From a bacterium (GTDB lineage Bacteria; ARS69), in assembly GCA_046330135.1 (NCBI GenBank), contig JAXLTI010000003.1, forward strand, positions 1,128,221 through 1,192,220: a stretch of DNA of 64,000 nt. The letters run 5' to 3'. Both the position numbers and the translations under genes were made by a program. Positions 19,472-44,272 of this stretch are shown here, piece after piece; the stretch's first letter is position 1; each line of letters begins with the position of its first letter. The notes under the pieces were generated by a model that was not told the origin of the DNA, made no database searches, and saw nothing but the letters and a program-made list of their open reading frames with translations.

Positions 19472-20056
19472 ATGACGCTGCGCACCGCCTCGCTCGGGAT
19501 CCTCCTCGCTCTCACCGTCGCTGCGCCGCCCCCTTCCCGGGCGGAGGACAATCCGCCGCCCGCCGCGGAAGGCGCCTCGCGCGCCAAGGCGCCAGGCTTC
19601 CACGTGGTCGACGTCAAGGGCGACAAGGTCTCCCTCGACGATCTCCTGGGGAAGGGCCCGGTCGTCATCGACTTCTGGGCGACGTGGTGCAAGCCGTGCA
19701 TCAAGGAGCTGCCGTACCTGCAACGGATCCTCGATCAATACGGGAAGAGAGGCGTGCAGGTGTGCGCGGTCACCATCGACTCGCCGAAGTCGCAGAGCCA
19801 GGTGAAGAAGTTCGTCGACACGCGCAACTACACGTTCCGCGTGCTGATGGACGGGGACCAGGAGGTCTTCCACAAGCTCCAGGGCAAGGGCTCCATCCCG
19901 TACGTGGTCGTGCTCGACTCGCAGGGCTTCATGCGGTTCCAGCACACGGGCTACGTGCCCGGGAACGAGAAGGAGATCGAGCGCGTGGTCGTGGAGCTGC
20001 TCGGCGGAGCGGGAGAGGCCCCTCAGGCGGAGGCCACGCCCGACACCACGAAGTGA
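19472..20056 (+). CDS. Secreted TlpA/ResA-like thiol-disulfide oxidoreductase (thioredoxin fold)
   Basis: Signal peptide, then DFWATWCKPC CxxC active site. Confidence 0.8.
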   Translation: MTLRTASLGILLALTVAAPPPSRAEDNPPPAAEGASRAKAPGFHVVDVKGDKVSLDDLLGKGPVVIDFWATWCKPCIKELPYLQRILDQYGKRGVQVCAVTIDSPKSQSQVKKFVDTRNYTFRVLMDGDQEVFHKLQGKGSIPYVVVLDSQGFMRFQHTGYVPGNEKEIERVVVELLGGAGEAPQAEATPDTTK

Positions 20057-21621
20057 GCCGGCGCCCGGGCCGCCCGACCGGCGGACGAAGGGGGCGCGCC
20101 GGGGCGTTCGCGATCGCATTCCTCACGGCGTCCGCGGCCGGCCTCGCCCGCGCCGACGACGACGCATCCACGCTCCGCATCAGCGCCACGGACAAGCTCG
20201 AGTACCGCCGCTTCGCCCACGAAGGCGTGCGCGAGGAGGCCTTCCGCAACCGGCTCGAGGTCTCCGGCTACCAGGGCATCTTCTCGGCGTGGCTCCGCCT
20301 CGAATCCCTGGAGCTCTCCAACGCCGCCGTGTACGACCCCTACGCCGTGGCGAAGACCGGCGTCACCGGCGAGCAGCGCATCGATCAGACCGAGGTCACG
20401 AAGCGGCTCTTCGGCGTGGAGACCGAGCACTTCCGCGTGCAGGCCGGCGACGTGTCGAACGTCTTCGGCCGCGGCCTCGCCATGTCGGTGTTCGAGGACG
20501 AGGAGCTGAACTTCGACACGCGCCTCGAAGGGGTCCGCGCGCGCGGAGAGAACGACCTCGGCGCCGCGACGGTCGTGGCCGGAAGCCAGCTCGGCAACCG
20601 CTTCCGGGGCGTCTTCGTGGAGCCGCGTCCGTTCGACCTCCGTGGTCCGTGGCCGAAGGCCCGCGCGCGGGTGGGCGGGAGCTTCGTGGAGGCGTGGGGC
20701 GCCACGGCGAACACGGACATCCTCCCGCGCGAGCAGCAGTCGGGCGGGCTCGCGGAGCTCGTGGTCGGGCCGGCCACGGTGTACGGCGAGTGGGTGGAGC
20801 GGGAATTCCCGGGGAAGGACGGGCTCGGCCACCTCGGAAAGCCGGGGCACGGCGGGTTCTTCTCGGGCGAGGTCACCACGCACGGCGTGACCTTCTCCGC
20901 CGAGCACAAGGACTTCTACCGCTTCGAGCACAAGTACCACGATCCGCCCACGACGTTGCGCCAGCACACGTGGACGAGCCTCCTGCGCGTGAACGGGCAG
21001 ATCCTCTCCGACATTCCCGACGACGACGTGAACGGGACGTTGCTCCAGGCCGAGTGGGCGCCGGGGACGTTCACGTCGTTCCTCGGGAGCTGGGCGCAGC
21101 TGGACAAGGACGTGGGCTCGGACCGTTTCCGCGAGGTCTATGGCGAAGCGAAGACCACGTGGCGGGAGAAGGTCTTCCTGACGGGTGCCGCCGCGGACTC
21201 CCGGGCCCACCTCGGGACCCAGCACGAGGAGCGGATCACCGGCCTCGGGGAGGACGTCATGCACCTCGACGACGTCAACAGCATCACCCTCGAGGGCGAG
21301 TGGGCGGAGGTGAAGCGTTTCGATGACACCACCTTCCGGTTCCAGGACCCCCGCAGGTTCCACGACCGGATCTTCGCGATCTCCTACGGCCGCTCGCCGT
21401 GGCTCGATCTCACGGTGACTCGCGAGGATACGGACGAAGGCGCGGCCACGGAGCCCCGCAGCGTCTGGGGCAACGTGATCGCGGAGATCAACGTGGCGGA
21501 CGGCCACGACGTCGTTCTGAGCTACGGGTCCGAGCGCGGCGGGTGGAAGTGCACGGGCGGAGTGTGCTTCTATGAACCGGAGTTCGAAGGGATGAAGATC
21601 AAATGGGTCGGTCGCTTCTAG
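20053..21621 (+). CDS. Predicted outer-membrane beta-barrel protein
   Basis: GTG overlapping the tlpA-like stop. Signal peptide AFAIAFLTASAAGLARA. Amphipathic beta-strand periodicity. C-terminal ...KIKWVGRF with terminal Phe. The track's 645-aa ORF from 19684 overlaps the tlpA-like gene and is an artifact. Confidence 0.5.
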   Translation: MSRRPGRPTGGRRGRAGAFAIAFLTASAAGLARADDDASTLRISATDKLEYRRFAHEGVREEAFRNRLEVSGYQGIFSAWLRLESLELSNAAVYDPYAVAKTGVTGEQRIDQTEVTKRLFGVETEHFRVQAGDVSNVFGRGLAMSVFEDEELNFDTRLEGVRARGENDLGAATVVAGSQLGNRFRGVFVEPRPFDLRGPWPKARARVGGSFVEAWGATANTDILPREQQSGGLAELVVGPATVYGEWVEREFPGKDGLGHLGKPGHGGFFSGEVTTHGVTFSAEHKDFYRFEHKYHDPPTTLRQHTWTSLLRVNGQILSDIPDDDVNGTLLQAEWAPGTFTSFLGSWAQLDKDVGSDRFREVYGEAKTTWREKVFLTGAAADSRAHLGTQHEERITGLGEDVMHLDDVNSITLEGEWAEVKRFDDTTFRFQDPRRFHDRIFAISYGRSPWLDLTVTREDTDEGAATEPRSVWGNVIAEINVADGHDVVLSYGSERGGWKCTGGVCFYEPEFEGMKIKWVGRF

Positions 21622-22841
21622 CCCTCGCAGCGGTCCTCTTCGTGGCGTCCTCCTGCTTCGAGGACGTGCCCCCGCCCACGCAGGGGTTCATCGAGATCGG
21701 CACCGGCGGCGTGTCCGGCGCGGAGGTGTTCCTGGACGGCGTCTCGCAGGGCGCGGCCGAGAAGCTCGGTCCCCTGGAGGCGGGCACGTACACGGTGAGC
21801 GTGGCGAAGCCGTACTACGACGTGGCGCCGGCGGACCGCGAGGTCGTGGTGCAGCCCACGAAGACCGCGCGCGTGGACTTCGCGATGACGCTGGTCGTGG
21901 TCGGTGCGGCGCACGTGACCGCCACGGACGAGCTTCTCGGCGGCGCGGTCGACGGCGCGGCCATCTTCATCCTGGACGGCTCCGGCACGCCGCAGCCCAC
22001 CGGGGTCGTCACGGACGCGTCCGGCAGCGCAACCCTCGAGCGCCTGCCGCCCGGCCCCACGCGGTTCCTCCTGCGCAAGGACGGGTTCGCGGACACCTCG
22101 CCGATCGCGGAGGACGTGCAGCCTTTCAACACCATCGACGTGGCGGCGCAGCTCGGGCCGCCGCGGGCAGTCCTCCTGGAGATGTTCACGTACGTCGTGT
22201 GTCCGAACTGCCCGCCGTCCTCCGCCGAGATTCGCGGGATGTACCGGGACAACGCCGGCACGCTCTTCGCGATCGAGTGGCACAGCGTGGCCGGGCTGCC
22301 GCTTTACGACGCGCGCTGGCACACGCACGAGATCTACTACCGCGGCACCAACTTCAACGGATGGCCGGCGGTGGTGGTTCAGGGCGGGGCCAACGACAGC
22401 CCGGCCGTGCTCGTGGACAGCAACGCGTCGGAGCTGGCCCAGTATCACGCCCGATTCGAGGCGCAGCGCGGCGCTTGCTCGAACGACTGCCCCGTGGCCG
22501 TGAAGGCGACCGGCACCATCGATGCTCTGGCCGCCACCTTCACGGTCCGTGTGAAGTGGCGGGGCGGCTCGTTGCCGGGCAACCTCGTGCTGCGGACCGC
22601 GTTGATCCAGCAGCTCGTGTCCGCTCCGGGGAACGACTCGCCCTACGACTTCGTGGCGCGCGATCTTCACGAGGAAGCGCTCACGTTGACGACGCCGGGC
22701 CAGGTTGTGGAATTCCCAGAATCCTTCATCATCTCCGGCACTTGGAACGCCGACAAGATGGATCTCGTGTCATACGTGCAGTCCGATGACACGCACGAGA
22801 TTCTGGCCGTTTGGGGGACGCGTCGTGTGACGCTCCCGTGA
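21603..22841 (+). CDS. Lipoprotein with thioredoxin-like CxxC (CPNC) module; Cys-containing paralog of the two downstream TGA-containing genes
   Basis: Lipoprotein-type signal (LFVASSC). Internal LLEMFTYVVCPNCPPS aligns with the EEFGxxxUxYCPxA segment of the downstream paralogs. Further conserved blocks (FAIEWH ~ LVHIDWH; YYRGTNFNGWPAVVVQGGAN ~ YYGVPAVPDVFFDGGNN). No T9SS CTD. Confidence 0.6.
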   Translation: MGRSLLALAAVLFVASSCFEDVPPPTQGFIEIGTGGVSGAEVFLDGVSQGAAEKLGPLEAGTYTVSVAKPYYDVAPADREVVVQPTKTARVDFAMTLVVVGAAHVTATDELLGGAVDGAAIFILDGSGTPQPTGVVTDASGSATLERLPPGPTRFLLRKDGFADTSPIAEDVQPFNTIDVAAQLGPPRAVLLEMFTYVVCPNCPPSSAEIRGMYRDNAGTLFAIEWHSVAGLPLYDARWHTHEIYYRGTNFNGWPAVVVQGGANDSPAVLVDSNASELAQYHARFEAQRGACSNDCPVAVKATGTIDALAATFTVRVKWRGGSLPGNLVLRTALIQQLVSAPGNDSPYDFVARDLHEEALTLTTPGQVVEFPESFIISGTWNADKMDLVSYVQSDDTHEILAVWGTRRVTLP

Positions 22842-22971
22842 GTCGGGGAGCTTGGCGCGGTCAACGTCAGGACAAGAGGACTCAAAGGAACACCACACCG
22901 GGCAACGGCCCGACCGCTTGTGCTAAAGTGGAGTCAGCTGTCCAAGTCCTTCAACTCGCACGGGGGTCCGC

Positions 22972-23736
22972 ATGAGACGGGCATTGGCAATCCTTGTGTT
23001 GGTCGCGGTCGTCACGATGGTTGGATGGTTCGGCGCGCCTTCGAACGCGCTCGCCTACGGGTACACGATCACGCCGCTCGGCTCGCTGACGCAGAGCTGG
23101 CCCGAGATCGACTTCACCGGGCCGTATTTCTACTTCCTGCTGAGGAACACAGCGGCGGTGGCGGACTCCTTCCATCTGGAGATCCAGAATCTCATCGTGT
23201 CGCCCGTGCCGCCGCAGGGCTACGAGTGGTTCCCGCAGGTCTGCTTGCGGCAGATCTGCTTCCCGGACAGCACCACGCTGCGCTTCGAGGCGGGTGTGCA
23301 GGACACGATCGGTGTGGACCTGGTCCCCTTCACCGACGGCGTCGGCAACGCGGACTTCGTCATGCACTCCGTGGGGAATCCGGCGCTCAACAGCACGTTC
23401 CATCTGAGGCTCTACGCGGGTACCGCGGCGGTGGGAGCGGGCATGCCGCCGAGCATCCCCACGCTGCAGCTCTCTCAGAGCGCACCGAATCCCGCGACCG
23501 GCCGCACCCGGATCCCGTTCATCCTGCCGCGCGAGGGACGCGCCACGCTGCGCGTCTACGACGCCGCAGGCAGGCTCGTCGAGACGCTCGTGGACGGAAC
23601 GCTCGCGGCCGGCGCGCACTCGGCCGAATGGACCGCTCGCACGGCGAGCGGGCAACTGCTGCCGGCGGGCGCGTATTTCTATCGCCTGGAGACTCCTCGC
23701 GGGTCTCTCTCGCGCAGCTTGATCCTGATTCGATGA
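22972..23736 (+). CDS. Small secreted protein with T9SS-type C-terminal sorting domain
   Basis: Signal peptide. C-terminus PNPATGRTRIPFILPREGRATLRVYDAAGRLVETLVDGTLAAGAHSAEW...GAYFYRLE. Confidence 0.6.
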   Translation: MRRALAILVLVAVVTMVGWFGAPSNALAYGYTITPLGSLTQSWPEIDFTGPYFYFLLRNTAAVADSFHLEIQNLIVSPVPPQGYEWFPQVCLRQICFPDSTTLRFEAGVQDTIGVDLVPFTDGVGNADFVMHSVGNPALNSTFHLRLYAGTAAVGAGMPPSIPTLQLSQSAPNPATGRTRIPFILPREGRATLRVYDAAGRLVETLVDGTLAAGAHSAEWTARTASGQLLPAGAYFYRLETPRGSLSRSLILIR

Positions 23737-23799
23737 CTCCGGACGTCTTCTCGCGTTAATCACCGGCCGGTCGGACCCGGCCTACGAAAGGAGCACGCA

Positions 23800-25812
23800 G
23801 TGAGAGCGAAGTGGTTAGCGCCGGTTCTGCTCGTGATCGGCTTCGTGATGATGGCGGTTCCCGCCTTCGCGGGGGTGCAGCGCACCACGATGGTGGAGGA
23901 GTTCGGGTATTTGTCTTGACCGTACTGCCCCTGGGCCCGTGCGGCCCTTCGGAACGTCGAGCTCGCCTACCCGAATGACGATCAGCTCGTCCACATCGAC
24001 TGGCATACGTCTGACGCCCTGGCGAACGGCTCGGGCGCAACACGTGCTAACTACTACGGCGTCCCGGCCGTTCCTGACGTGTTCTTCGACGGCGGCAACA
24101 ACGTTCTCGGCGCAGGCGACTCGGTGAGTGCCTACAGCGACTTCAGACCGCGCGTGGACGCCGCCTACGCGGTGCCCTCGAAGCTCATTATCAGCGCTCA
24201 GCTCGACCTGAACTCGAGCACGATGCTAGCCACAGTCACCACGGACGTGACTGTGGCGCCCGGCGAAACGATCGGGACACCGAGCGCCTGTAAGGTCCGC
24301 GCGGCGTTGACCGAGGACAACATCGTCAGGTGCTGCGAGCCCCACACCGGGCACCTGACTTGGAACTACATCTCTCGCGCGATGGTCTTCGAGGTTCCGC
24401 TCACCGACTCGCTTTCGGGCCAGACGCAGCACATCGTGCAGACGTTCCCGATCGACCCGTCGTGGAACATCCGGAACCTGCACGCGGCGGTGTGGGTCCA
24501 GCGCGACACGAACAAGAACATCCTCCAAGCGGCGAACGCCACGGTGGCGTACGAAGCCGTCCTCACGGATCTCGACCCCATCGTGGCGAAGGTCACGTCG
24601 GGGCCGAGCACCTTCGACGACCAGGTCACGAACACGGGCACGTTCAGCGATGACGTGACCCTGACGCTCGACGAGTCCACGCTGCCCTCTGGTTGGAGCG
24701 CGGACATCGTCTACAACTCGACGGTCTACCCGTCGACCGTCACGATCCCGAACATGGCGCATGGCCAGGTGGAGAACGTGAGCGTGCGTGTCACGCCGAA
24801 CGGACCCGGGGAGGGAACCGTTGCGCTCATCGCGGCGCCGTTCCACAACTCCACGTGGACGAACGTGCACCCGTACCACACGTTCTCGCAGACGCCGGCG
24901 ATCCTCTTCGTGGACGACGACAACGGCGCGTCCTTCGAAGGGAAGTACCAGAACGCGATCACCGGCGCCGGCTACTGGTCCGTGACGCAGACGGTGTCCA
25001 CGCAGGGCAATCCGCTCGCGAGCTACATCAACCTCTTCGACGCGCTCGTCTGGAACACCGACTCGCTCCAGACGAACACGATCGGCACGGCGCTCCAGAC
25101 CACGCTCATGAGCTACATGGACGGCGGCGGGAAGCTCTTCCTCGTCAGTCAGGGGATCCTGAACGAGCGCGGGCTCACGCCGATGGTCACGGGCTACCTC
25201 CGCGTGAGCGCGTTCACGCCGGACGTGGGCGGGGCGAGCGCGACCGGCCTCGCGGGGGATCCGATCGGGGACGGTCTGAGCTTCGCGGTCAGCCCGCCGT
25301 TCGTGAACAAGGCCGACGCGGTCACGCCGAACACCGGTGGCGTGGCTTGGTTGGACGCGGGCTTGAACCATGTGGCCGTGCGGTACGACTCGGGCGTCTA
25401 CCGGACGGTCTTCATGACGGCGCCCTTCGAGGGGATCGCGACACCCACGGATGCCACGGTGATGAAGCGGGTGCTCGACTGGCTCGTGCCGAACGACATC
25501 ACCGCGGTTCCCCCGGTGGCGGGACGGGACGAGAGCGGGCTGGCCCTCTGGCAGAACGCTCCCAACCCCTTCAGCGGCACCACCTCGTTGCTCTTCTCGA
25601 TGCCCCAGGCCGGGCACGCTCGCCTCACCGTCTACGACGTCGCGGGCCGCCGGGTGGCGAGCCTCGTCGATCGTCAGCTCGAGGCGGGGGCGCACTCGGT
25701 TGTCTGGGACGGCCGGGACGTGACCGGGGCGCGCACCGCGAGCGGGGTTTACCTGGTCCGCCTCACCGCGAACGGCCGGACGGTCAGCCGGGAGATGGTG
25801 CGGGTGAAGTAA
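23800..25812 (+). CDS. Putative secreted selenoprotein, paralog 1: thioredoxin-like U-P-Y-C module, large uncharacterised domain, T9SS C-terminal domain. In-frame TGA at 23917..23919 read as Sec
   Basis: GTG start 9 nt after AGGAG. Signal peptide VRAKWLAPVLLVIGFVMMAVPAFA|GVQ lies upstream of the TGA. The frame stays open from the TGA into the 577-aa ORF listed in the track. UxxC aligns with CPNC of gene 21603. C-terminus matches the T9SS CTD (NPFSGTTSLLFSMPQAGHARLTVYDVAGRRV...GVYLVRL). Confidence 0.6.
23933..23947 (+). promoter_or_regulatory. Putative bacterial SECIS hairpin, paralog 1
   Basis: GGGCC-CGUGC-GGCCC. Lies 13 nt downstream of the UGA. Loop identical to that of paralog 2. Confidence 0.5.
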
Positions 25813-25867
25813 AGGCGGATGCAGGAACACAGGTTCGGCGCCCGGCCGGGTCCGGGCGGCGACTCTC

Positions 25868-25906
25868 GGGGGGGCCGTCGGGCGACCGGCGGCCTCCCTT
25901 CTTGCC
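25868..25906 (+). terminator. Terminator-like hairpin after paralog 1
   Basis: GGGGGGCCGTCGG-gcga-CCGGCGGCCTCCC followed by TTCTTGCC. Confidence 0.45.
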
Positions 25907-26059
25907 GATTGGGGGCCGATCCGCGACCAACCCGGTGCCCCGGTGGCACTCGGTGTGGTATTTTGGAGCCAGTTGCCTAACCCCCACGGCAGCGGTGCGC
26001 CATGTAGGTCCGGCTCCTCTCTCCCGGCCGGTGCTCACCGGCTTCGAAAGGAGATCCCT

Positions 26060-28096
26060 GTGAGAGCAAGGTCCCTCACGAAGGTCCTTTTCCTCCTCCT
26101 CGGCGCCGTGCTCTTCGCCGCGCCCGCTCTGGCGACAGTCCAGCGGACGATGCTCGTCGAAGAGTTCGGCTGGTGGAATTGAACGTACTGCCCCTACGCC
26201 CGTGCGGCGTTGCGGATGACGGAACGGCAGGACTACCCCGACAAGACCCAGCTCGTCCACCTCGACTGGCACTTCAACGACGCGGTGCTCGGTAACCCCA
26301 GCTCGACGGCGCGCGCCCAGTACTACGCCGCGAACTCCGCTCCCGACGTCTGGTTCGACGGCAGCCAGCACGTCGTCGGCGCCGGCGACTCCGTGGGGAC
26401 GTACAACACGTACAAGCCGATCCTCGCGGCGCACTACATCGATCCGTCGCAGCTGCTCGTGTCGGTGACGCTCGATCTGAACTCGATCACGTTGACCGGT
26501 ACGTCCACGGTGAACGTCCAGGTGGCGCCGGGGGAGACCATCAACCTCCCCTCCAACTGCAAGATCCGGTGCGCGCTCTACGAAGACGCGGTGCCCCTGG
26601 GCGGCGGCAGAACGGAGCCGCACACCGGGAACACCACCATGAACTACATCGCCCGGCTGATGATCACCGAGACCACGCTCACGGCGACGAACTCGGGCGA
26701 TACCCAGCAGGTGGTGACGAACTTCAGTATCGATCCGACGTGGAAGATCCAGGATCTGCACGCGGTGGCATTCGTTCAGCGCGATACGAACAAGAAGGTG
26801 CTGCAGGCGGGCTTCTCCCCGGCGCAGTACCAGGTTCTCGTGTCCGATCTCGGTACCCCCGTGGCGCGGGTCAACAGCGGTGCCAAGGACTTCAACTCCC
26901 AGGTCCTGTACCAGGGCACCGTCAACGACGACGTGCTGCTGACGCTCGACAAGTCGGCCCTGCCCGTCGGATGGGACGCTGCGATCGTGTGGAACGGCAA
27001 CTCGTACCCCACGACGCTCACGATCCCGAACATGACGAAGGACCAGCAGGAGGCGATCACGGTCCGCGTGACTCCGTCGGCCCCGGGGATGGGGACGGTG
27101 GGATTCTCCGTGGAGCCCGTGTCGCTGCCGCCGGCCGCGCAGAATCACAGCTACATCACGTTCTACCAGCGGCCGAAGCTGCTCTTCGTGGACGACGACA
27201 ACGGCGCCCACCTGGAGACGTACTACCAGAATGCGCTCGCCAGCGCCGGCTACTTCGCGCTCGGACACGACGTCGCAGCCCTCAACGGAGCCACTCCGCC
27301 GGTGAGCTGGATGTCGAACTTCGACGCCGTCATCTGGAACACGGATTCGCTCCAGGTGCTGACGCTCGGCGGACCGCAGCAGGCTGATCTCATCAGCTAT
27401 CTGGACGGCGGCGGCCGGCTGTTCCTCTGCAGCCAGGGATTCCTGAACGATCGCGGGCTCGTGGCCCTCACCACGAACTACCTCCGGGTGAGCGCGTTCA
27501 CCCGGGACGTAGGTGCTCCGACCGTCACGGGCGTCGCCGGAGACCCGATCGGGGACGGCATGAGCTTCGCCGTCACCCCGCCCTTCACCAACCTGGCGGA
27601 TGCGTTGACGCCGGGCGTGGGGGCGGCGCCGTGGCTGGACTCGGGCGCGAATCACGTCGCCATGCGCTACGACAGCGGCGTCTTCAAGACCGTGCTCCTG
27701 ACCGCGCCGTTCGAGGGCATCGCTGCGCCCAACGACGCGCTGGTCATGCAGCGCGTGCTCCAGTGGCTCGTGCCGGATACGGCCACGGATGCTCCGGTGA
27801 TCGGTGGGCAGGTGGCGGGCGGTCTGGCGTTGTTCCAGAACGTCCCGAACCCGTTCAGCGGCACCACGTCGCTGCGCTTCTCGCTGCCGGCGGCCGGCCA
27901 CGTGGGCCTGGCCATCTACGACGTCGCGGGTCGCCGCGTGGCGAGCCTCGTCGATCGCAGGCTGGAAGCGGGCACGCACTCGTTCGATTGGGACGGGCGT
28001 GACGTCACGGGCGCGCGGGTCGCGAGCGGCGTGTACCTCGTCCGTCTCAAGGCCGGCAACGAAACCGTCAGCCGCGAGATGGTGCGGGTGCACTAG
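26060..28096 (+). CDS. Putative secreted selenoprotein, paralog 2: U-T-Y-C module, large uncharacterised domain, T9SS C-terminal domain. In-frame TGA at 26180..26182 read as Sec
   Basis: GTG start after AGGAG. Signal peptide VRARSLTKVLFLLLGAVLFAAPALA|TVQ is listed in the track as a separate 79-aa ORF ending at the TGA. That ORF is in frame with the 628-aa ORF beginning 9 codons later. T9SS CTD at the C-terminus. Confidence 0.6.
26196..26210 (+). promoter_or_regulatory. Putative bacterial SECIS hairpin, paralog 2
   Basis: ACGCC-CGUGC-GGCGU. Lies 13 nt downstream of the UGA. Two stem base pairs covary relative to paralog 1 (G-C to A-U, G-C to C-G). Confidence 0.5.
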
Positions 28097-28136
28097 CAGA
28101 GAGCGGCGCGGCGGGTCCGCGCGTCGCAGCTTCGGC

Positions 28137-28172
28137 GGGGGCCGTCGGCGTGACCGGCGGCCCCCGTTTCGT
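28137..28172 (+). terminator. Terminator-like hairpin after paralog 2
   Basis: GGGGGCCGTCGG-cgtga-CCGGCGGCCCCC followed by GTTTCGT. Homologous to the hairpin after paralog 1. Confidence 0.45.
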
Positions 28173-28294
28173 CGGGCCTTCGCGCTTCGTCCGGTCGCCC
28201 GGTCTTCGGGCTCGGTCTTCGCGCTCGGTCTTCTCGTTCGGCCTTCCGCGTTGCGGCGCTTCGGGCGAGAATCCGCCGGAAGAGTGAGGAGACC

Positions 28295-29014
28295 GTGCGA
28301 ACCGTCATCGTCGTCCCGACCTACAACGAAGCGCCGAATCTGGAGCGGCTCGTGGCGGAGCTGCGCCGCATCGTCCCCGAAGCCGACATCCTGGTGGTGG
28401 ACGACCGCTCGCCGGACGGCACGGGCGAGATCGCGGACCGCCTCGCGGCCGCGGACCCGCACGTGTCCGTGGTCCACCGCGCCCCGCCCAAGGGGAGAGG
28501 CCTCGCCGGCCGGGACGGCTTCCTCGCGGCGCTCGCGTCCCGCGCCGACGCGATCCTCGAGATGGACGCGGACTTCTCGCACGATCCCGCCCTGGTGCCC
28601 CGCTTCCTTTCGGAGCTGAGCCGCGGCGCCGACATGGTCCTCGCGTCCCGCTTCGTCCGCGGCGGCTCGGACACGGATCGCCCGTGGCTCCGCCGGCTCA
28701 TCACGGTGCTGGCGAACTCCTACATCCGCCTCGTGCTCGGCGTCCCCATCGGCGACTGCAACTCCGGGTATCGCGGCTTCACGCGCGCGACGCTCGAGGC
28801 GATCCGGCCCGCCACGCTGACCAGCACGGGGCCCTCGATCGTCCAGGAGGTCCTCTTCCGCGCGCACCGGGCGGGCGCTAGGATCGTCGAGATCCCGCTC
28901 GAGTTCGTCGATCGGCGCGAGGGCGACTCGAAGCTGTCGCTGGGGCTCCTCCTGGACGGGTACGTGATGATCCTCCGGCTGCGCATCCGCGAGCTCCTGG
29001 GGAAGCAGCCATGA
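28295..29014 (+). CDS. GT2 polyprenyl-phosphate glycosyltransferase (Dpm1/Ppm1-like)
   Basis: GTG after GAGGAG. Sequence VIVVPTYNEAPNLERL...LVVDDRSPDGT and DxD region, typical of GT2 Dpm1-like enzymes. Confidence 0.8.
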   Translation: MRTVIVVPTYNEAPNLERLVAELRRIVPEADILVVDDRSPDGTGEIADRLAAADPHVSVVHRAPPKGRGLAGRDGFLAALASRADAILEMDADFSHDPALVPRFLSELSRGADMVLASRFVRGGSDTDRPWLRRLITVLANSYIRLVLGVPIGDCNSGYRGFTRATLEAIRPATLTSTGPSIVQEVLFRAHRAGARIVEIPLEFVDRREGDSKLSLGLLLDGYVMILRLRIRELLGKQP

Positions 29015-31380
29015 CCACGCCGGATCCGGCTCCCGGGGAAGCCGCCGTGACCACGCCGGATCCGCCGAATGGACGAGCCGCCGTGACTGCGCCCGATCCC
29101 CTGGCCGCGAACGTTCCCCTGCGGCGGCTGACGATCGCCGCGGTGCTCCTGGCGGCGCTCTTCCTCACGTGCTTCCAGGTCACGGACACGGACCTCGGCG
29201 GGCACGTCACGGTCGGCCGGGAGATCCTGAAGAGCCACCAGATCCCGAGCACGAACTTCTTCAGCCACACGCATCCGGACTATCCCTATCCGGTGCACCA
29301 GTGGCTCGGGCAGGTGACGCTCTTCCTCGTGCATCACTTCGCGGGCGCCACGGGTCTCATCCTGCTGCGGATGCTCGTCGTCTTCCTCGGCGCGGTGCTG
29401 CTCTTCCGCAACGCGCGACGCGAGGGCGCGCCCATCGTGGTCGCCAGCGCGATCGTCCTCGTGCTCCTCGTCTGCGCGCGCCCGCGCTTCTTCGAGCGGC
29501 CCTTCCTGGTCACGATCGTGTTCCTGCCGCTCCTGCACGGCTACGTGGCCGATCTGCGGGAAGGGAAGACCCGACGCCTCTGGCCGATCATCCCGCTCAT
29601 GACGATCTGGGCGCACGTCCACTCGGGCGTCCTCTTCGGCGCGCTGTACCTCGCGGCCTCCGTGGTGGGGGAGGGCGCGAAGATCCTGCTCGCGCGACGC
29701 CCGGGCCGCCACGCCGTGCCGGGCTCGCACGTGTTCCCGGGGACGCCGCTGGACGGCTGGAACTACCGGCGGCTGGCGCTCTTCTCCGCGGTGGCGATCG
29801 CATTGCCCATCGCTACGGTCGCGCTGATCAACCCGAGCGGCGTGAAGCCGCTGGCCTTGCCGTTCCTCTTCTATCAGAACCAGGCGTTCCGCCAGATGAT
29901 CCTCGAGTACCACTCCGTGCGGCTGTCCGTGGATTGGCCGTGGGATCTCGTGGCGGGCGCGGCGCTGCTCGGCGTGCTGCTGCGCCCGCGTCGCGTGGAC
30001 CTCACGCAGCTTCTCGTGTCGCTCGGCTTCGGGATCCTCGCGTACCAGGCGGTGCGGGAGATCATCACGTTCGCCGCGGCGTCGGCGCCGCTCCTCGGGC
30101 GCACGTGGGGCGCGCTCGCGGACGATCTCTTCGCGCGCATCGGTCGCGGGCGTCGTGGGCAGGCGTCGAGCGAGGGCGGCGGCAGCGCGCGCGCGAACGT
30201 GGCCGAGGCGATCGTGGCCTGGGCGGTCGTCGCCGCGGCCGCGTTCGTCTCCTTCCGCGCCACGCAGGACTGGATGTTCCCGTTCGGGTTCGGGATGGAT
30301 CCGAAGCACTTCCCCGAGCGCGCGGTGGACTTCCTCTGGGCGGAGAACATCCAGGGTCCGATCTTCAACACCGACGTCTTCTCGTCCTGCATCCTGCTGC
30401 GCGGCAAGGGGCGGCGCTTCCCGGTCTTCGTGGACGCGCGGCTCGAGGCGTATCCGGAGAGCTTCTGGCGCGACGAGTACTACCGCGTGCTCGAAGCGGC
30501 GCCCGGATGGGAGGACGTGCTCCGCCGCTACGACGTCCAGTGCGCGATCCTCCGCCGCGCCGGCGGGGAGGTGGACGACCGGATCGGCGACGTCCTCTGG
30601 AAGGACCCCGGCTGGGGCTGCGTCTACTGGGACGACGCCATGATGATCTTCGTGCGTCGGGGTGGGCGGGCGCCGCGCAACGACGAGGTCCTCCGGTCCT
30701 GGGCGTTCACGGCCTTCTCGCCGCGTCGCCCGGAGGACGTGCGCGCGCTGCGCGGGGCGGCCCTGGACCGTGCCGTCGCGGAGCTCACGCGCCTCACCGG
30801 ATGGGAGGAGACCTCGTTCCTCCCGCGCTGGGCGCTCGCGGCCGCCTGGACGAGGCAGGGCAAGGGCGAGGACGCCGCGGACCTCTTCGCCCGCCTCGCC
30901 GCGCTCCGGGACGCGAAGCACAACGCGGCGTTCGTCCGGAGCCGTGCGGAAGCCGAGCTGGTGGCGGGGCGCCGGAGCCGGTGGGCGGAGCTTCTGACGG
31001 AGGCCAAGGCGGACCCGAACACGGCGGCGTCGCTCTTCGACGGGGCCGCCCTCCTGGCCGCGGCCGGCAAGTCCGACTCGTCCATCGCGATGTACGGCGA
31101 GGTGCTGCGCGCGGACCCGTCGAACGCGGATGCGTCGAACAACCTCGCGCTGCTCCTCGGTCGCGCGGGCCGGACCAAGGAAGGGCTCCAGCGCGTGAAC
31201 GAGGCGTTGCGCCGCTCCCCGAACGACGCCTACTACGTGGCCACGCGCGCCGAGATCCTCTCCCTGGACGGGGACCGCGCCGGCGCCCTGGCCGAGTTCC
31301 GGAAGTCCCTCGATCTCCTCCCGGCCGACGACAAGGCGGCGCGCGAGGAGGTCATGCACTGGATCCTCAAGCTGGAGTGA
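29011..31380 (+). CDS. Multi-pass membrane protein with C-terminal TPR repeats (GT-C / TMTC-like putative glycosyltransferase)
   Basis: Start overlaps the GT2 stop. About 10 predicted TM helices in the N-terminal 400 aa. C-terminal TPR-like helical repeats. 33-nt in-frame direct repeat at the N-terminus (AAVTTPDPPNGR / AAVTAPDP). Confidence 0.55.
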   Translation: MTTPDPAPGEAAVTTPDPPNGRAAVTAPDPLAANVPLRRLTIAAVLLAALFLTCFQVTDTDLGGHVTVGREILKSHQIPSTNFFSHTHPDYPYPVHQWLGQVTLFLVHHFAGATGLILLRMLVVFLGAVLLFRNARREGAPIVVASAIVLVLLVCARPRFFERPFLVTIVFLPLLHGYVADLREGKTRRLWPIIPLMTIWAHVHSGVLFGALYLAASVVGEGAKILLARRPGRHAVPGSHVFPGTPLDGWNYRRLALFSAVAIALPIATVALINPSGVKPLALPFLFYQNQAFRQMILEYHSVRLSVDWPWDLVAGAALLGVLLRPRRVDLTQLLVSLGFGILAYQAVREIITFAAASAPLLGRTWGALADDLFARIGRGRRGQASSEGGGSARANVAEAIVAWAVVAAAAFVSFRATQDWMFPFGFGMDPKHFPERAVDFLWAENIQGPIFNTDVFSSCILLRGKGRRFPVFVDARLEAYPESFWRDEYYRVLEAAPGWEDVLRRYDVQCAILRRAGGEVDDRIGDVLWKDPGWGCVYWDDAMMIFVRRGGRAPRNDEVLRSWAFTAFSPRRPEDVRALRGAALDRAVAELTRLTGWEETSFLPRWALAAAWTRQGKGEDAADLFARLAALRDAKHNAAFVRSRAEAELVAGRRSRWAELLTEAKADPNTAASLFDGAALLAAAGKSDSSIAMYGEVLRADPSNADASNNLALLLGRAGRTKEGLQRVNEALRRSPNDAYYVATRAEILSLDGDRAGALAEFRKSLDLLPADDKAAREEVMHWILKLE

Positions 31381-31562
31381 TCCGGGCGCTGGCCGGCCCG
31401 GGCCGCGCCGCCGGCAGCCCTGTTCGGGCGGCAGCCCTGTTCGGGAACGCCGCATGCCCGGCCCTCGCGGGCCATCCGCTCCAGCGTCGCCCTCGCCTTG
31501 TTCGTGCTCGGGGACGGTGTTACCCTGTCCCGCCCCTTCCATTGCGCGAGGCGGAGGTTTCC

Positions 31563-34235
31563 GTGGCGGAGCCCAAGATCCACGAGCTCCCGAAGGCGTA
31601 CGAGCCGGCGGCCGTCGAGGAGCGGATCTACGGCTTCTGGGAGGCCGGCGGGCACTTCCACGCGGACCCGCGCTCGTCGAAGCCCCCGTTCACGATCATG
31701 ATCCCGCCGCCCAACGTGACCGGCGTCCTCCACATGGGGCACGCCTTGAACAACACGTTGCAGGACATCGTGATCCGGCACCGTCGCATGGCCGGGTTCG
31801 AGGCGCTCTGGCTGCCCGGCACCGATCACGCCGGCATCGCCACGCAGGCCGTGGTGGAGAAGCAGCTCTACAAGGAGTTCGGGCTCACGCGCGAATCGAT
31901 GGGCCGCGAGGCGTTCGTCGGCGAGATCTGGAAATGGCGGGAGCGGCACGGGGACGCCATCCTCCGTCAGCTTCGCCGCCTCGGCTGCTCGTGCGACTGG
32001 TCGCGGACGAAGTTCACCCTCGACGACGACATGAGCCGCGCGGTGGCCACCGCCTTCGTGCGCCTCTGGGAGCGCGGGCTCGTCTACCGCGGCGCGCGGC
32101 TCGTGAACTGGGATTGCACGCTGCGCACCGCCGTCTCCGACGACGAGATCGAGTACGTGCCGCGGCGCGGCAAGCTCTGGTACGTCCGCTATCCGGTGCG
32201 CGGGGAGGAAGGTCGCTTCATCACCGTGGCCACCACGCGGCCGGAGACCATGCTCGGCGACACGGGCGTGGCGGTGCATCCGGGCGACGAGCGCTGGAGC
32301 AGCTTCATCGGCAAGACCGTGTTGCTGCCGCTGCTGGATCGGCCCATTCCCGTGGTGGCGGACGAGACGGTGGAGACCGCGTTCGGCACGGGCGCGGTGA
32401 AGGTGACGCCGGGCCACGATCCCGCGGACTACGACCGCGGGCAGCGCTTCGGCCTGCCCATCGTGAGCCTGTTCGAGCCGGACGGGACGCTCGGCGAGGC
32501 GGCGGGCCCGTATCGCGGGCAAACGCGCGAGGGCGCGCGCGAGCGGATCGTGGCGGACCTCGAGGCGCGCGGGCTCCTGGAGAAGGTGGAGGAGATCGAG
32601 CACAACGTGGCCGTGTCGGACCGCTCGCGGGACACGATCGAGCCGTTGATCTCGGAGCAGTGGTTCGTGCGCATGAAGGAGATCGCCGGGCCCGCCATCG
32701 AGGCGGTGAAGTCCGGCCGGCTCAAGATCGTCCCGGAGCGCTGGGCGAAGGTGTACCTGGACTGGCTCGAGAACGTGCGGGACTGGTGCATCTCGCGGCA
32801 GCTCTGGTGGGGCCACCGCATCCCCGTGTGGTACGACGAGGACGGAGTGCCCGCCGCCTCCGCGCTGCCGCTCGCGCGCGGCTCGCCGCACCCGAAGACC
32901 GGCAAGCGCATCGTGCGCCAGGACGACGACGTGCTGGACACGTGGGCGTCCAGCTGGCTGTGGCCCTTCGCCACGCTCGGCTGGCCGGAGCGCACCGCGG
33001 ATCTCGCGCGCTTCTATCCCACGCAGTTCCTGAGCACCGCGCGGGAGATCATCTACCTGTGGGTGGCGCGCATGGTGATCGCGGGCTACGAGCTGCTGGA
33101 CTTCCTCCCGGAGGACCAGCGCTGCCCGTTCTCCACTTGTTACATTCACGCCACGGTGCTCGACACGCAGGGCCGGCGGATGTCGAAGAGCCTGGGCAAC
33201 GGCATCGACCCGATCGAGATGATCGACAAGTACGGCGCGGACGCGGTGCGCTACTCGCTCGTGACGCTCACCCGCGAGGGCCAGGACGTGAAGCTGGCGG
33301 AGAACCGCTTCGAGCTGGGCCAGCGCTTCTGCAACAAGATCTGGAACGCGGTGCGCTTCGCCCTCGCCAACCTGGACGGCGTGCCGCAGGGGCCGCTCGG
33401 CGAGACGCTCGAGGATCGCTGGATCCTCTCGCGCACGCGGCGCGCGATCCGCGAGGTGGAGTCGTCGCTCACGGAGTACCGCTTCCACGACGGCGCCGCG
33501 GAGCTGTACCGCTTCTTCTGGAACGACCTGTGCGACTGGTACCTCGAGGTCGCGAAGCGCCGGCTGGCGCCCGGCGCGAGCGAGTCGGATCGGGAGGCGG
33601 CGCGCGCCACGCTGGCGCGGGTCCTCTCCGCCACGATCCGCATGCTGCATCCGTATCTTCCGTTCGTGACCGAGGAGCTGTGGAGCTACCTGCCGGGGAC
33701 GGACGGCGCGCTCGTGGTGGCCCCGTGGCCGGACGCGGACGCGTTCCGCGCGGACGAGGCCGCGGAGGCGGACTTCGAGCGGCTGCGCGAGACGGTCTCG
33801 GCGGTGCGGAACCTGCGCAGCTCCATGAACGTGCCGCCGAGCGCCACGGTGCGCCTGCTGGTGCACTCGGACGACGCGGACCTCGCGCGCGTGCTCGCCG
33901 AGACGTCGGAGCTGGCCACGGCGCTCGCGCGGCTGTCGGAGGTGACGGTGGGCCCGAGCGTCGCGAAGCCGAAGAGCGCGGCCAGCGCGGTGGTGCGCGG
34001 GGGAACGGTCTGGGTGCCGCTCGAGGGCGTCATCGACCTCGACGTCGAGCGCGAGAGGCTGCGCCGCGAGAACGAGCGCCTGGAGAACCTGGTCTCGGGC
34101 GCCACGCGGAAGCTCGGCAACGCGGACTTCGTGTCCCGCGCGAAGCCCGAGATCGTGGACCGCGAGCGGGAGAAGCTCGCGAGCCTGAAGACCGACCTGG
34201 ACCGCGTAACCGCCGCGCTCGCGGACCTGGAGTAG
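31563..34235 (+). CDS. valS: Valyl-tRNA synthetase
   Basis: GTG after GGAGG. HIGH motif (HMGHALN). KMSKS motif (RMSKSLGN). C-terminal coiled coil. Confidence 0.9.
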   Translation: MAEPKIHELPKAYEPAAVEERIYGFWEAGGHFHADPRSSKPPFTIMIPPPNVTGVLHMGHALNNTLQDIVIRHRRMAGFEALWLPGTDHAGIATQAVVEKQLYKEFGLTRESMGREAFVGEIWKWRERHGDAILRQLRRLGCSCDWSRTKFTLDDDMSRAVATAFVRLWERGLVYRGARLVNWDCTLRTAVSDDEIEYVPRRGKLWYVRYPVRGEEGRFITVATTRPETMLGDTGVAVHPGDERWSSFIGKTVLLPLLDRPIPVVADETVETAFGTGAVKVTPGHDPADYDRGQRFGLPIVSLFEPDGTLGEAAGPYRGQTREGARERIVADLEARGLLEKVEEIEHNVAVSDRSRDTIEPLISEQWFVRMKEIAGPAIEAVKSGRLKIVPERWAKVYLDWLENVRDWCISRQLWWGHRIPVWYDEDGVPAASALPLARGSPHPKTGKRIVRQDDDVLDTWASSWLWPFATLGWPERTADLARFYPTQFLSTAREIIYLWVARMVIAGYELLDFLPEDQRCPFSTCYIHATVLDTQGRRMSKSLGNGIDPIEMIDKYGADAVRYSLVTLTREGQDVKLAENRFELGQRFCNKIWNAVRFALANLDGVPQGPLGETLEDRWILSRTRRAIREVESSLTEYRFHDGAAELYRFFWNDLCDWYLEVAKRRLAPGASESDREAARATLARVLSATIRMLHPYLPFVTEELWSYLPGTDGALVVAPWPDADAFRADEAAEADFERLRETVSAVRNLRSSMNVPPSATVRLLVHSDDADLARVLAETSELATALARLSEVTVGPSVAKPKSAASAVVRGGTVWVPLEGVIDLDVERERLRRENERLENLVSGATRKLGNADFVSRAKPEIVDREREKLASLKTDLDRVTAALADLE

Positions 34236-34411
34236 GCCCCTCGGGGGTCGGCGCGGCGGACTCCGCCGTCGGGCCGGTGGCGGGTCCGCAAACGGGGGCG
34301 GCAGGCGGAATAGGGCCGGCGCCTCCGGGGTAATGCCGGAGATCCCGCAGCCCTCGACACGTCGGGGCGCCCGCGAGAGATTGGTCCCGCTGTCCACTCG
34401 GGAGGAGCCTC

Positions 34412-39974: not shown

Positions 39975-39978
<4 letters not shown>
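38485..39978 (-). CDS. nuoM: NADH-quinone oxidoreductase subunit M
   Basis: Antiporter-like subunit. Start approximate (about VILLVLILILLAAG). Confidence 0.7.
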
Positions 39979-41950
<1,972 letters not shown>

Positions 41951-41951
<1 letters not shown>

Positions 41952-42259
41952 CAGCCTCTCATCGAGCTCGCGCTGTCGGCGTCGAGCGTGCGGAACCGCT
42001 GGTGGAGGAGGATCACGAGGGCGAGCCCCACGGACACTTCCGAGGCCGCCATCGCGAGGATGAAGAGGAACATGATCTGGCCGTCCGCGGCGCCCCACCG
42101 TGAGCTGGCCGCCACGAAGGCCAGGCCGGCCGCGTTCAGCATGATCTCCACGGAGATCAGCATGAAGAGGAGGTTCCGGCGGACCAGGAGCCCGGTCAGC
42201 CCGAGCGCGAACAGCACGGCGGCCACGACGAGCACGGAGGGAAGCGGAATCGGCGTCAT
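41951..42259 (-). CDS. nuoK: NADH-quinone oxidoreductase subunit K
   Basis: 102 aa, three TM helices ([43 protein letters not shown]...). Confidence 0.8.
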
Positions 42260-44261: not shown

Positions 44262-44272
44262 GACCAGGGGAT

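What the first reader, a model, noticed from the sequence alone, without database searches (positions are those of the whole stretch)
23920..26210. SECIS-like hairpins 13 nt after each UGA share an identical loop and show compensatory stem changes
Paralog 1 has GGGCC-CGUGC-GGCCC at 23933..23947. Paralog 2 has ACGCC-CGUGC-GGCGU at 26196..26210. The spacing from the UGA (13 nt) and the loop (CGUGC, containing G/U) are identical. Two stem pairs differ by exact compensation: G-C to A-U and G-C to C-G. The 5' arm changes alter the encoded residue (W to Y). The 3' arm changes are synonymous (GCC CTT to GCG TTG). This is the pattern expected when an RNA helix, not just the protein, is under selection.
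Basis: seen in the sequence. Interest (0 to 1): 0.8.

Follow-up and report, generated by a model that had tools for sequence, protein, structure and literature searches.

The report
Selenocysteine-insertion hairpins in two secreted redox genes
Two neighbouring genes for secreted thioredoxin-like proteins each contain an in-frame UGA followed by a small RNA hairpin that evolution has clearly preserved, which fits the ordinary bacterial signal for inserting selenocysteine; the case is well supported but not a new kind of element.

Summary
It has not been tested biochemically.

- **The genes.** Both tandem genes (23800-25812 and 26060-28096, + strand) have one in-frame TGA. It lies at the first Cys position of a CxxC motif in an Omp28/thioredoxin-like domain.
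- **The hairpins.** Thirteen nt downstream lie the hairpins GGGCC-CGUGC-GGCCC and ACGCC-CGUGC-GGCGU.
- **One sequence alone is not significant.** RNAfold z-scores are -0.7 to +0.4. Between 13% and 24% of window positions carry an equally good hairpin.
- **Homologues carry the evidence.** In 22 distinct UGA-containing homologues, RNAalifold predicts exactly this 5-bp helix.
  - The two outer pairs covary: A-U 10, G-C 6, U-A 5, one mismatch; and C-G 15, G-C 7. They switched at least 3-5 separate times.
  - Synonymous sites in the helix and loop are frozen or use rare codons. None of 34 control sites in the same genes is frozen.
  - Cys-containing paralogues, including one in this window, lack the hairpin.
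- **Fit to the published model.** Geometry matches the bacterial SECIS consensus, with the loop G exactly 20 nt after the UGA.
- **Family.** The nearest known family is the Omp28-related selenoprotein family (NF045500, GOS_C), matched below its cut-off.
- **Not shown.** SelB binding, Sec incorporation and the presence of sel genes in this genome.

Verdict: a new member of a known kind, of modest interest.

The parts
23800..25812 (+). Paralog 1: full selenoprotein ORF read through the UGA (670 aa). It has a signal peptide, an Omp28/thioredoxin-like domain with a U-P-Y-C motif, a middle domain, and a FlgD_ig / T9SS C-terminal sorting domain. It ends in TAA.
   Evidence: Translation. Pfam hits Omp28, FlgD_ig and Por_Secre_tail. 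NCBIfam best hit is NF045500 Omp28-related selenoprotein, 57.6 bits against a cut-off of 200. The only in-frame TGA is at 23917. The public annotation of this gene (P0002) is a 562-aa N-truncated protein.
23917..23919 (+). In-frame UGA of paralog 1, the proposed Sec codon (first position of UxxC).
   Evidence: It aligns with TGA in 30 further homologous sites and with Cys (TGC/TGT) in distant homologues and paralogues.
23933..23947 (+). SECIS upper stem-loop of paralog 1: GGGCC / CGUGC / GGCCC. It has 5 bp and a 5-nt loop. The loop G at 23939 is the 20th nt after the UGA.
   Evidence: Sequence. Hairpin energy -8.7 kcal/mol. RNAalifold consensus helix and covariation. Synonymous-site constraint.
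23921..23956 (+). Possible whole SECIS of paralog 1 including a lower stem (23921-23 with 23954-56; 23925-27 with 23950-52). This is predicted only.
   Evidence: Constrained fold gives -13.3 kcal/mol. The lower stem is not supported by comparison: 60% of cells are paired and its positions are fixed by Cys and Arg codons.
26060..28096 (+). Paralog 2: full selenoprotein ORF read through the UGA (678 aa). Same architecture as paralog 1, with a U-T-Y-C motif. It ends in TAG.
   Evidence: Translation. Pfam. NCBIfam NF045500 at 45.8 bits. 54% identical to paralog 1.
26180..26182 (+). In-frame UGA of paralog 2, the proposed Sec codon.
26196..26210 (+). SECIS upper stem-loop of paralog 2: ACGCC / CGUGC / GGCGU. 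It has 5 bp and a 5-nt loop. The loop G at 26202 is the 20th nt after the UGA.
   Evidence: Sequence. Hairpin energy -6.2 kcal/mol alone, -11.6 with flanking pairs across 26184-26218. Covariation.
21603..22841 (+). Cys-containing paralogue in the same gene cluster, with PEGA / CarboxypepD_reg domains and an Omp28-like C-terminal half. Its CPNC motif is at 22200-22211. It serves as an internal negative control, not as part of the element.
   Evidence: Translation shows ...EMFTYVVCPNCPPSSAEI.... Pfam. Only 2 of 5 in-register pairs and no A-R-A-A peptide downstream of the Cys codon.

Best explanation
Each hairpin is the upper stem-loop of a bacterial selenocysteine insertion sequence (bSECIS) embedded in the coding sequence of a secreted Omp28/thioredoxin-like UxxC selenoprotein.

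Proposed mechanism, inferred from the established E. coli and Moorella model:
- The elongation factor SelB, carrying Sec-tRNA(Sec) and GTP, binds the apical part of the hairpin. The 5-bp stem presents a C-G-U/G-G-C loop.
- When the ribosome places the UGA in its A site, the hairpin sits at the mRNA entrance, about 13 nt away.
- The tethered SelB delivers Sec-tRNA(Sec), so the UGA is read as selenocysteine rather than as stop.
- The product is a ~670-aa protein with an N-terminal signal peptide, a U-x-Y/F-C redox motif and a T9SS sorting domain.

Because the RNA signal overlaps codons for C-P-x-A-R-A-A-y, it also dictates protein sequence. A-R-A-A is fixed, and residues x and y co-vary: W pairs with Leu (CUN), Y/D/N with Leu (UUR), and F with Asn/Met/Ile.

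Shown here: the helix is conserved, covaries, and is constrained at synonymous sites, and it is specific to the UGA-containing forms.

Inferred, not shown: SelB binding and Sec insertion.
For: 1. UGA at a catalytic Cys position. 32 homologous sites carry TGA, never TAA or TAG, exactly where distant homologues and paralogues have the first Cys of CxxC. The reading frame and the signal peptide are conserved upstream.
2. Database truncation. About 37 database homologues are N-truncated just after this point, as expected when gene callers stop at the UGA. Short 37-53 aa ORFs sit immediately upstream of them.
3. Unbiased structure prediction.
4. Covariation. Pair 17:31 is AU 10, GC 6, UA 5, with 1 mismatch. 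Pair 18:30 is CG 15, GC 7. The covariation score is 0.359 against 0.112 +/- 0.030 in shuffles (0 of 500 reach it) and at most 0.135 in slid registers.
5. Independent events. Fitch parsimony on a protein NJ tree gives 4 changes (3-5 over bootstraps) for each side of pair 18:30, and 7-8 (5-9) for pair 17:31. A Y-form sequence (L101) is nested in the F-form clade with 96-98% bootstrap support.
6. Synonymous constraint.
   - Ala GCC 22/22 and Ala GCG 22/22.
   - Arg CGU 19/22 and CGG 3/22. CGU is 8.5% of Arg codons in these genes, and CGC (41%) is never used.
   - Leu is UUR in 10 of 10 cases where its partner is A, although UUR is 4.8% of Leu codons.
   - None of 34 control conserved 4-fold (or Arg) sites elsewhere in the same genes has an invariant third base.
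   - The Pro codon just 5' of the helix varies freely.
7. Non-synonymous compensation. F (UUC) forms replace Leu by AAC, AUG or AUU, giving U-A pairs and up to 7 bp.
8. Negative controls. Cys homologues have 0-4 of 5 in-register pairs and no shared hairpin. This includes the paralogue in this window.
9. Geometry fits the published bSECIS model (PMC13188914).
   - Loop of 5 nt, within 3-9.
   - Stem of 5-7 bp, within 4-16.
   - G at loop position 2, followed by U or G.
   - 18 nt between UGA and loop, within 16-37.
   - The loop G is exactly 20 nt after the UGA, matching 'conserved G at ~20 nucleotides downstream' (PMC4605307).
10. Family. The best NCBIfam hit is the Omp28-related selenoprotein family NF045500.
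Against: - No biochemical evidence exists.
- No tRNA-Sec, selA, selB or selD was found in the 64-kb window. The rest of the genome could not be searched.
- The stem is short (5 bp). The paralog 2 hairpin alone is -6.2 kcal/mol, weaker than the model's -7.5 threshold unless unsupported flanking pairs are added.
- Single-sequence folding is not distinguishable from shuffles, and such hairpins are common in this GC-rich DNA.
- The loop ends C...C cannot form the N1-N2 pair that the consensus pattern often shows.
- One homologue (L099) breaks one pair (G.G).
- The W/Y part of the protein tree is poorly resolved (51% bootstrap for win_p2+L098), so the exact number of independent switches is uncertain.
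- There is no Rfam family to score against.
Confidence: 0.87

Rival explanations
1. The helix is a by-product of a conserved peptide (C-P-x-A-R-A-A-L) written in GC-rich codons. There is no selection on RNA structure.
For: Three of the five pairs never vary, and they lie in codons for conserved Ala and Arg residues. Hairpins of similar strength follow 13-24% of positions in this window. RNAfold z-scores are not significant.
Against: Synonymous positions are frozen or use rare codons against the genes' own bias: GCC 22/22, GCG 22/22, CGU 19/22 against an 8.5% background, and UUR Leu 10/10 against 4.8%. None of 34 control conserved sites is invariant at its third base. Both-sided compensation recurs several times on the tree. 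Cys paralogues do not conserve A-R-A-A at all, so the peptide looks like a consequence of the RNA rather than its cause.
Confidence: 0.03
2. The UGA is a true stop (split gene or pseudogene), or is read through without SelB by a near-cognate tRNA. The hairpin would then act as a generic pausing or read-through stimulator, or as a translational coupling or attenuation signal.
For: No Sec machinery was seen in the window. Public annotations treat the UGA as a stop. Stable structures 3' of stop codons can promote read-through in other systems (general knowledge).
Against: 32 sites from several phyla keep UGA specifically, at the exact position of the redox Cys. The N-terminal signal peptide is conserved in frame, and the downstream part has no signal peptide of its own. 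The hairpin's position and its G-U/G loop match SelB-type SECIS rules (PMC13188914, PMC4605307). The closest curated family is a selenoprotein family.
Confidence: 0.07
3. UGA is reassigned genome-wide (for example to Trp or Gly, as in genetic codes 4 and 25), and the hairpin is irrelevant.
For: Only the in-frame UGAs themselves.
Against: TGA is the commonest terminator of high-GC3 ORFs in the window (22 of 35). Each paralogue has exactly one in-frame TGA. That TGA aligns with Cys, not Trp or Gly, in homologues.
Confidence: 0.01

Closest known systems
Bacterial SECIS element (bSECIS consensus model of Zhang & Gladyshev, as summarised in PMC13188914; E. coli fdhF/fdnG SECIS as prototype)
   Same: It lies in the coding region immediately 3' of an in-frame UGA. 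It has a small apical loop (5 nt) on a 5-7 bp upper stem. G is at the second loop position and is followed by U or G. There are 18 nt between the UGA and the loop, and the loop G is 20 nt after the UGA. It constrains the encoded peptide. Cys homologues lack it.
   Different: - The stem is at the short end of the range (5 bp in both window copies).
- There is no evidence for the bulged U or for a conserved lower stem as in fdhF.
- The C...C loop ends cannot pair.
- The sequence is unrelated to the E. coli elements, which is usual for bSECIS.
- SelB binding is untested.
Omp28-related selenoprotein, NCBIfam NF045500 (= 'Hypothetical protein GOS_C', UxxC motif; table in PMC13188914)
   Same: It is the best-scoring NCBIfam model for both window proteins and for distant UGA-containing homologues. 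The match covers the Omp28-like domain including the UxxC site. Both have Sec at the first position of UxxC.
   Different: Scores are 44-73 bits against a curated cut-off of 200, so these proteins are not members of that equivalog. They are about 670 aa long and carry an extra ~300-aa middle domain and a FlgD_ig / T9SS type A sorting domain. They come from Gemmatimonadota, Eiseniibacteriota and Krumholzibacteriota-type MAGs, not from the marine GOS set.
Omp28 family outer-membrane lipoproteins (Pfam PF11551, NCBIfam NF033782) and thioredoxin-fold CxxC proteins
   Same: The Pfam Omp28 domain is detected. There are weak thioredoxin and glutaredoxin matches in the PDB (1fo5, 3uiw). The CxxC position is shared with Cys homologues.
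   Different: The window proteins use Sec instead of the first Cys and have a different domain architecture. The paralog 2 Omp28 score is below the Pfam gathering threshold.

Membership tests
Bacterial SECIS (bSECIS) | Located in the mRNA directly downstream of an in-frame UGA that aligns with Cys in homologues | tested here: met
   TGA at 23917 and 26180. 32 homologous TGA sites. Cys at the same column in L021, L028, L017, L022, L016, L029, L094 and L003-L011, and in the window paralogue at 22200.
Bacterial SECIS (bSECIS) | Apical loop of 3-9 nt on an upper stem of 4-16 bp (PMC13188914) | tested here: met
   5-nt loop. 5 bp in both window copies and 5-7 bp across homologues.
Bacterial SECIS (bSECIS) | At least one G in the first two loop positions, usually followed by G or U | tested here: met
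   The loop is C-G-U-G-C in 19 of 22 and C-G-G-G-C in 3 of 22. The synonymous alternatives CGC and CGA are never used although CGC is 41% of Arg codons.
Bacterial SECIS (bSECIS) | 16-37 nt between the UGA and the apical loop; conserved loop G about 20 nt after the UGA (PMC13188914, PMC4605307) | tested here: met
   18 nt to the loop, and the G is the 20th nt after the UGA, in all 22 close homologues.
Bacterial SECIS (bSECIS) | Free energy of -7.5 kcal/mol or lower | tested here: inconclusive
   The paralog 1 hairpin alone is -8.7. Paralog 2 alone is -6.2 and reaches -11.6 only with flanking pairs that comparison does not support.
Bacterial SECIS (bSECIS) | Structure maintained by selection (conservation and compensatory change), and absent from Cys forms | tested here: met
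Bacterial SECIS (bSECIS) | Binds SelB and directs Sec incorporation; genome encodes selA, selB, selC and selD | not testable with these tools
   No sel genes or tRNA-Sec in the 64-kb window or in the fetched loci. The rest of the 1.3-Mb source contig could not be read.
Omp28-related selenoprotein (NCBIfam NF045500, equivalog_domain) | Score at or above the curated cut-off (200 bits) | tested here: not met
   57.6 and 45.8 bits for the window proteins, and 43.6-72.6 bits for distant UGA homologues. These are homologous but outside the curated family.
Omp28-related selenoprotein (NCBIfam NF045500, equivalog_domain) | UxxC motif with Sec in an Omp28-like domain | tested here: met
   U-P-Y-C and U-T-Y-C motifs. 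The Pfam Omp28 match spans residues 83-250. The motif type for NF045500 is taken from PMC13188914.

The most novel reading that the evidence does not exclude
The C-G-U/G-G-C pentaloop on a 5-bp stem, placed exactly 13 nt after the UGA, may be a minimal lineage-specific SelB recognition module for Gemmatimonadota, Eiseniibacteriota and related FCB-type bacteria. A similar CGUGU loop appears in a different register in the Krumholzibacteriota homologues. If so, it could serve as a search key for a larger, currently mis-annotated set of secreted (T9SS-sorted) selenoproteins in these phyla. The family would also be a rare natural example in which SECIS pairing visibly drives amino-acid co-substitution: F with N/M/I, and W or Y with alternative Leu codons.
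Probability: 0.25. Interest if true: 0.4.

Novelty: new member of a known kind. Interest (0 to 1): 0.3.

Why it matters
- **Annotation.** These genes are systematically mis-annotated in public MAGs. The window's own gene is deposited as a 562-aa 'FlgD immunoglobulin-like domain containing protein'. About 37 homologues are cut just after the hairpin, which removes the signal peptide and the redox-active site.
- **Biology.** Recognising the UGA and SECIS restores a family of secreted, T9SS-sorted thioredoxin-like selenoproteins. This extends selenium use to poorly known phyla (Gemmatimonadota, Eiseniibacteriota, Krumholzibacteriota-type MAGs).
- **Method.** The alignment is an unusually clean natural covariation data set for a bacterial SECIS. 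It includes non-synonymous compensation and could help train or benchmark selenoprotein finders.
- **Limits.** It does not change the understanding of how Sec insertion works.

Tried and rejected
- **Single-sequence folding.** The hairpin is not more stable than shuffles, so I rejected this as evidence either way.
- **Rfam.** There is no match at gathering thresholds over the whole window, and only noise at E up to 10 around the site. Rfam offers nothing to score a bSECIS against here.
- **First protein search and first genome scan.** The N-terminal domain gave 1 hit and 0 loci. A profile of post-UGA sequences was needed to find homologues.
- **Third TGANNNTAYTGCCC-like site at 59379.** It is a chance match.
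- **Third GCCCGKGCGGC site at 54239.** It is a chance match with no upstream UGA.
- **Lower stem and 7-bp extension of the helix.** Only 60% of cells are paired and the positions are fixed by Cys and Arg codons, so I do not claim them.
- **Other candidate Sec-UGAs in the window.** A scan using GC3 on both sides of each TGA found only gene junctions.
- **tRNA-Sec in the window and in 28 loci.** None was found.
- **ARAGORN tRNA-Glu at 34119-34207.** It has no Rfam support and is probably a false positive.
- **Literature search for 'Omp28' plus 'selenoprotein'.** No papers were returned.
- **Krumholzibacteriota-type homologues.** Their conserved hairpin lies in a different register and shows no variation, so it adds no covariation evidence.
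Full report
**1. What is in the window**

Two tandem genes lie on the + strand.
- Paralog 1 runs from a GTG at 23800 to a TAA at 25812.
- Paralog 2 runs from a GTG at 26060 to a TAG at 28096.

Each is interrupted by a single in-frame TGA, at 23917-19 and 26180-82. Read through, they encode proteins of 670 and 678 aa that are 54% identical. Each protein has four parts:
- a typical N-terminal signal peptide (judged by eye from the sequence);
- an Omp28/thioredoxin-like domain whose redox motif reads U-P-Y-C or U-T-Y-C;
- a middle domain of about 300 aa;
- a FlgD_ig / T9SS type A sorting domain.

- There are 13 nt after each TGA.
- The hairpins are GGGCC-CGTGC-GGCCC (23933-47) and ACGCC-CGTGC-GGCGT (26196-210).
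- The two pair differences are G-C to A-U and G-C to C-G.
- They arise from W(TGG) to Y(TAC) on the 5' arm.
- On the 3' arm they arise from the synonymous changes GCC to GCG and CTT to TTG.

**2. Is it more than chance in the window alone? No.**

- RNAfold z-scores for 39-86 nt windows are between -0.66 and +0.41.
- The 60-nt minimum-energy fold of paralog 1 uses a different pairing.
- I scanned every third position of the window for ungapped hairpins obeying loose bSECIS rules. 24% of positions have one of -6 kcal/mol or better, and 13% have one of -8 or better.
- The two hairpins alone score -8.7 and -6.2 kcal/mol.

With two paralogues only, the compensatory pattern was suggestive and nothing more.

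**3. Homologues**

A profile search with the post-UGA part of the protein returned about 37 close homologues.
- Nearly all are 620-629 aa long and begin just after '...ARAALR'. This is what happens when gene callers stop at a UGA.
- One hit (P0002) is the window's own paralog 1. It is deposited as a 562-aa 'FlgD immunoglobulin-like domain containing protein'.

I fetched DNA through a metagenome scan, a genome scan and contig look-ups. The source MAGs are labelled Gemmatimonadota, Eiseniibacteriota/Eisenbacteria, Krumholzibacteriota and unclassified 'bacterium'.

tblastn located the codon aligned with the window UGAs.
- 32 sites carry TGA, never TAA or TAG.
- More distant homologues and paralogues carry TGC or TGT, as CxxC.
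- One of these Cys paralogues is in this window, at 21603-22841, with CPNC at 22200.

**4. The helix is conserved and covaries**

I aligned the UGA plus 51 nt of 22 distinct close-family sequences. The alignment has no gaps (A4).

RNAalifold, given no hint, predicts a single consensus structure: columns 17-21 paired with 27-31.
- The three inner pairs are invariant.
- Pair 18:30 is C-G in 15 sequences and G-C in 7.
- Pair 17:31 is A-U in 10, G-C in 6, U-A in 5 and G.G in 1 (L099).
- 99% of cells in the 5-bp helix are paired.

For the 7-pair version:
- No shuffle out of 500 reaches the observed covariation score (0.359 against 0.112 +/- 0.030).
- No shuffle reaches the observed number of both-side changes (24 against 9.7).
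- Sliding the 3' partner by 1-3 columns gives scores of 0.010-0.135.

Several sequences extend the helix to 6-7 bp.
- D forms read CGACGCC...GGCGUUG.
- N forms read CAACGCC...GGCGUUG.
- F forms read GUUCGCC...GGCGAAC.

**5. Phylogenetic independence**

I built an NJ tree from about 540 residues downstream of the hairpin and applied Fitch parsimony.
- Columns 18 and 30 each need 4 changes (3-5 across 100 bootstrap trees).
- Column 17 needs 7 changes (5-8) and column 31 needs 8 (6-9).

The best-resolved case is L101 (TAC...GCG TTG). It is nested inside the F clade (TTC...GCG AAC/ATG) with 96-98% bootstrap support.

The W/Y interleaving in the rest of the tree is less well resolved. For example, win_p2 groups with the W-form L098 at only 51%. 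I therefore claim 'several' independent compensated switches rather than a precise number.

**6. Not a by-product of protein or codon conservation**

Synonymous sites tell the story.
- Within the 22 genes, Ala is GCG 52% and GCC 38% of the time. The first helix Ala is nevertheless GCC in 22 of 22, and the loop/3'-arm Ala is GCG in 22 of 22.
- The loop Arg is CGU in 19 of 22 and CGG in 3 of 22. CGU makes up 8.5% of Arg codons, and the favoured CGC (41%) is never used. This matches the published 'G followed by G or U' loop rule.
- Leu at the 3' end of the helix is UUR in all 10 sequences whose partner base is A, against a UUR background of 4.8%. It is CUN in all 6 Leu-encoding W forms.
- Among 34 control columns elsewhere in the same genes with a conserved 4-fold-degenerate residue or Arg, none has an invariant third base. 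The mean share of the commonest third base is 0.60.
- The Pro codon immediately 5' of the helix varies freely: CCC 13, CCA 3, CCT 3, CCG 3.

In the F forms the compensation is non-synonymous. Leu is replaced by Asn, Met or Ile so that U-A pairs form.

Cys homologues do not conserve A-R-A-A and show 0-4 of 5 in-register pairs with no common hairpin. The peptide A-R-A-A therefore looks like a consequence of the RNA signal.

**7. What it is and how it most likely works**

The element fits the published bacterial SECIS consensus (PMC13188914, read).
- Loop of 3-9 nt: here 5.
- Upper stem of 4-16 bp: here 5-7.
- G in the first two loop positions, usually followed by G or U: here C-G-U/G.
- 16-37 nt between UGA and loop: here 18.

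[quoted passage not shown] Here the G is exactly the 20th nucleotide, and 13 nt separate the UGA from the stem.

The energy criterion of -7.5 kcal/mol or lower is met by paralog 1 alone. Paralog 2 meets it only with flanking pairs that comparison does not support.

By inference from the established mechanism, SelB carrying Sec-tRNA(Sec) and GTP binds this stem-loop and delivers Sec to the UGA. That step, and the presence of selABCD in the genome, could not be tested. No such genes or tRNA-Sec lie in the window.

Genome-wide UGA reassignment is excluded. TGA terminates 22 of 35 high-GC3 ORFs in the window.

**8. Comparison with known families**

The best NCBIfam model for both window proteins, and for distant UGA homologues, is NF045500 'Omp28-related selenoprotein'. 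The 2026 review lists that model as 'Hypothetical protein GOS_C', with a UxxC motif.

Scores are only 44-73 bits against a cut-off of 200. These proteins are therefore homologous to that family but are not members of the curated equivalog. They also carry extra domains.

I found no paper that mentions Omp28 together with selenoproteins.

More distant UGA homologues appear to use other hairpins in other registers. They also have G at loop position 1 or 2, within 16-37 nt of the UGA. This is normal bSECIS diversity.
- The Krumholzibacteriota type has U-V-Y-C-P-N-A-E-A-G-L-A-V-C.
- An Eiseniibacteriota type has U-G-P-C.

**9. Verdict**

The SECIS interpretation is supported by strong comparative evidence but not by experiment.

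This is a new, divergent and mis-annotated branch of a known kind: a bacterial UxxC thioredoxin-fold selenoprotein with an in-ORF SECIS. It is not a new mechanism. It is useful for annotation and as a clean covariation example, and its interest is modest.

Noticed in passing
window 21603-22841 (+), CPNC at 22200-22211: A Cys-containing Omp28-like paralogue sits two genes upstream of the selenoprotein pair. Its N-terminal half has PEGA / CarboxypepD_reg domains, and the motif reads ...EMFTYVVCPNCPPSSAEI... The equivalent 413-aa Cys gene occupies the same position in L094. So Sec and Cys versions of the domain coexist in one cluster.
   Followed up: partly
window 19472-31380; compare L093 and L094: Gene order is conserved around the selenoprotein: AhpC/TSA-redoxin (19472-20056, WCKPC motif), an unassigned stretch (20289-21326, no Pfam hit; L094 has a DUF6029 gene at the corresponding position), the Cys paralogue, a 254-aa FlgD_ig protein (22972-23736), the selenoprotein(s), a GT2 glycosyltransferase (28295-29014) and a TPR protein (29011-31380). 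The window has two tandem selenoprotein copies where L093 and L094 have one.
   Followed up: partly
window 23800-25812; proteins P0002-P0038: Public gene calls for this family are systematically truncated. The window's paralog 1 is deposited as a 562-aa protein starting at residue 109. About 37 homologues start just after the SECIS, and the 37-53 aa signal-peptide ORFs are called separately upstream.
   Followed up: yes
L023, L025 and L027 (Krumholzibacteriota-type MAGs), 0-66 nt after their TGA codons: Distant UGA homologues (U-V-Y-C-P-N/R-A-x-A-G-L-A-V-C, up to three tandem copies per locus) lack the window's hairpin. They share an invariant segment, GCGGGNCUCGCCGUGUGCG, that can fold in two ways: GCGG/CCGU with loop GNCUCG, or CUCGC/GCGAG with loop CGUGU. 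Which one is the SECIS is unresolved, because there is no variation to test.
   Followed up: partly
window 34119-34207 (-): ARAGORN calls an 89-nt tRNA-Glu(CTC) here. No Rfam tRNA model matches it even at E up to 1, and it lies within an ORF predicted on the minus strand (31233-34397, not checked against protein families). It is probably a false positive and is not a tRNA-Sec.
   Followed up: yes
L065:2033 and L067:2031 (Eisenbacteria MAGs): The hairpin core GCCCGKGCGGC also occurs after ...GCATGAACCCCT in two unrelated loci. A TGA lies 6 nt upstream, but that trinucleotide may simply be part of an ATG start (ATG AAC CCC). I did not examine it further.
   Followed up: no
window 1-4212 and 39975-51701: The rest of the window is ordinary housekeeping: a type IV pilus pilMNO-secretin operon, Obg, RNase D, a GGDEF protein, a nuo (complex I) operon on the minus strand, the Kup K+ transporter and a histidine kinase. 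No selenium-related genes were found.
   Followed up: yes
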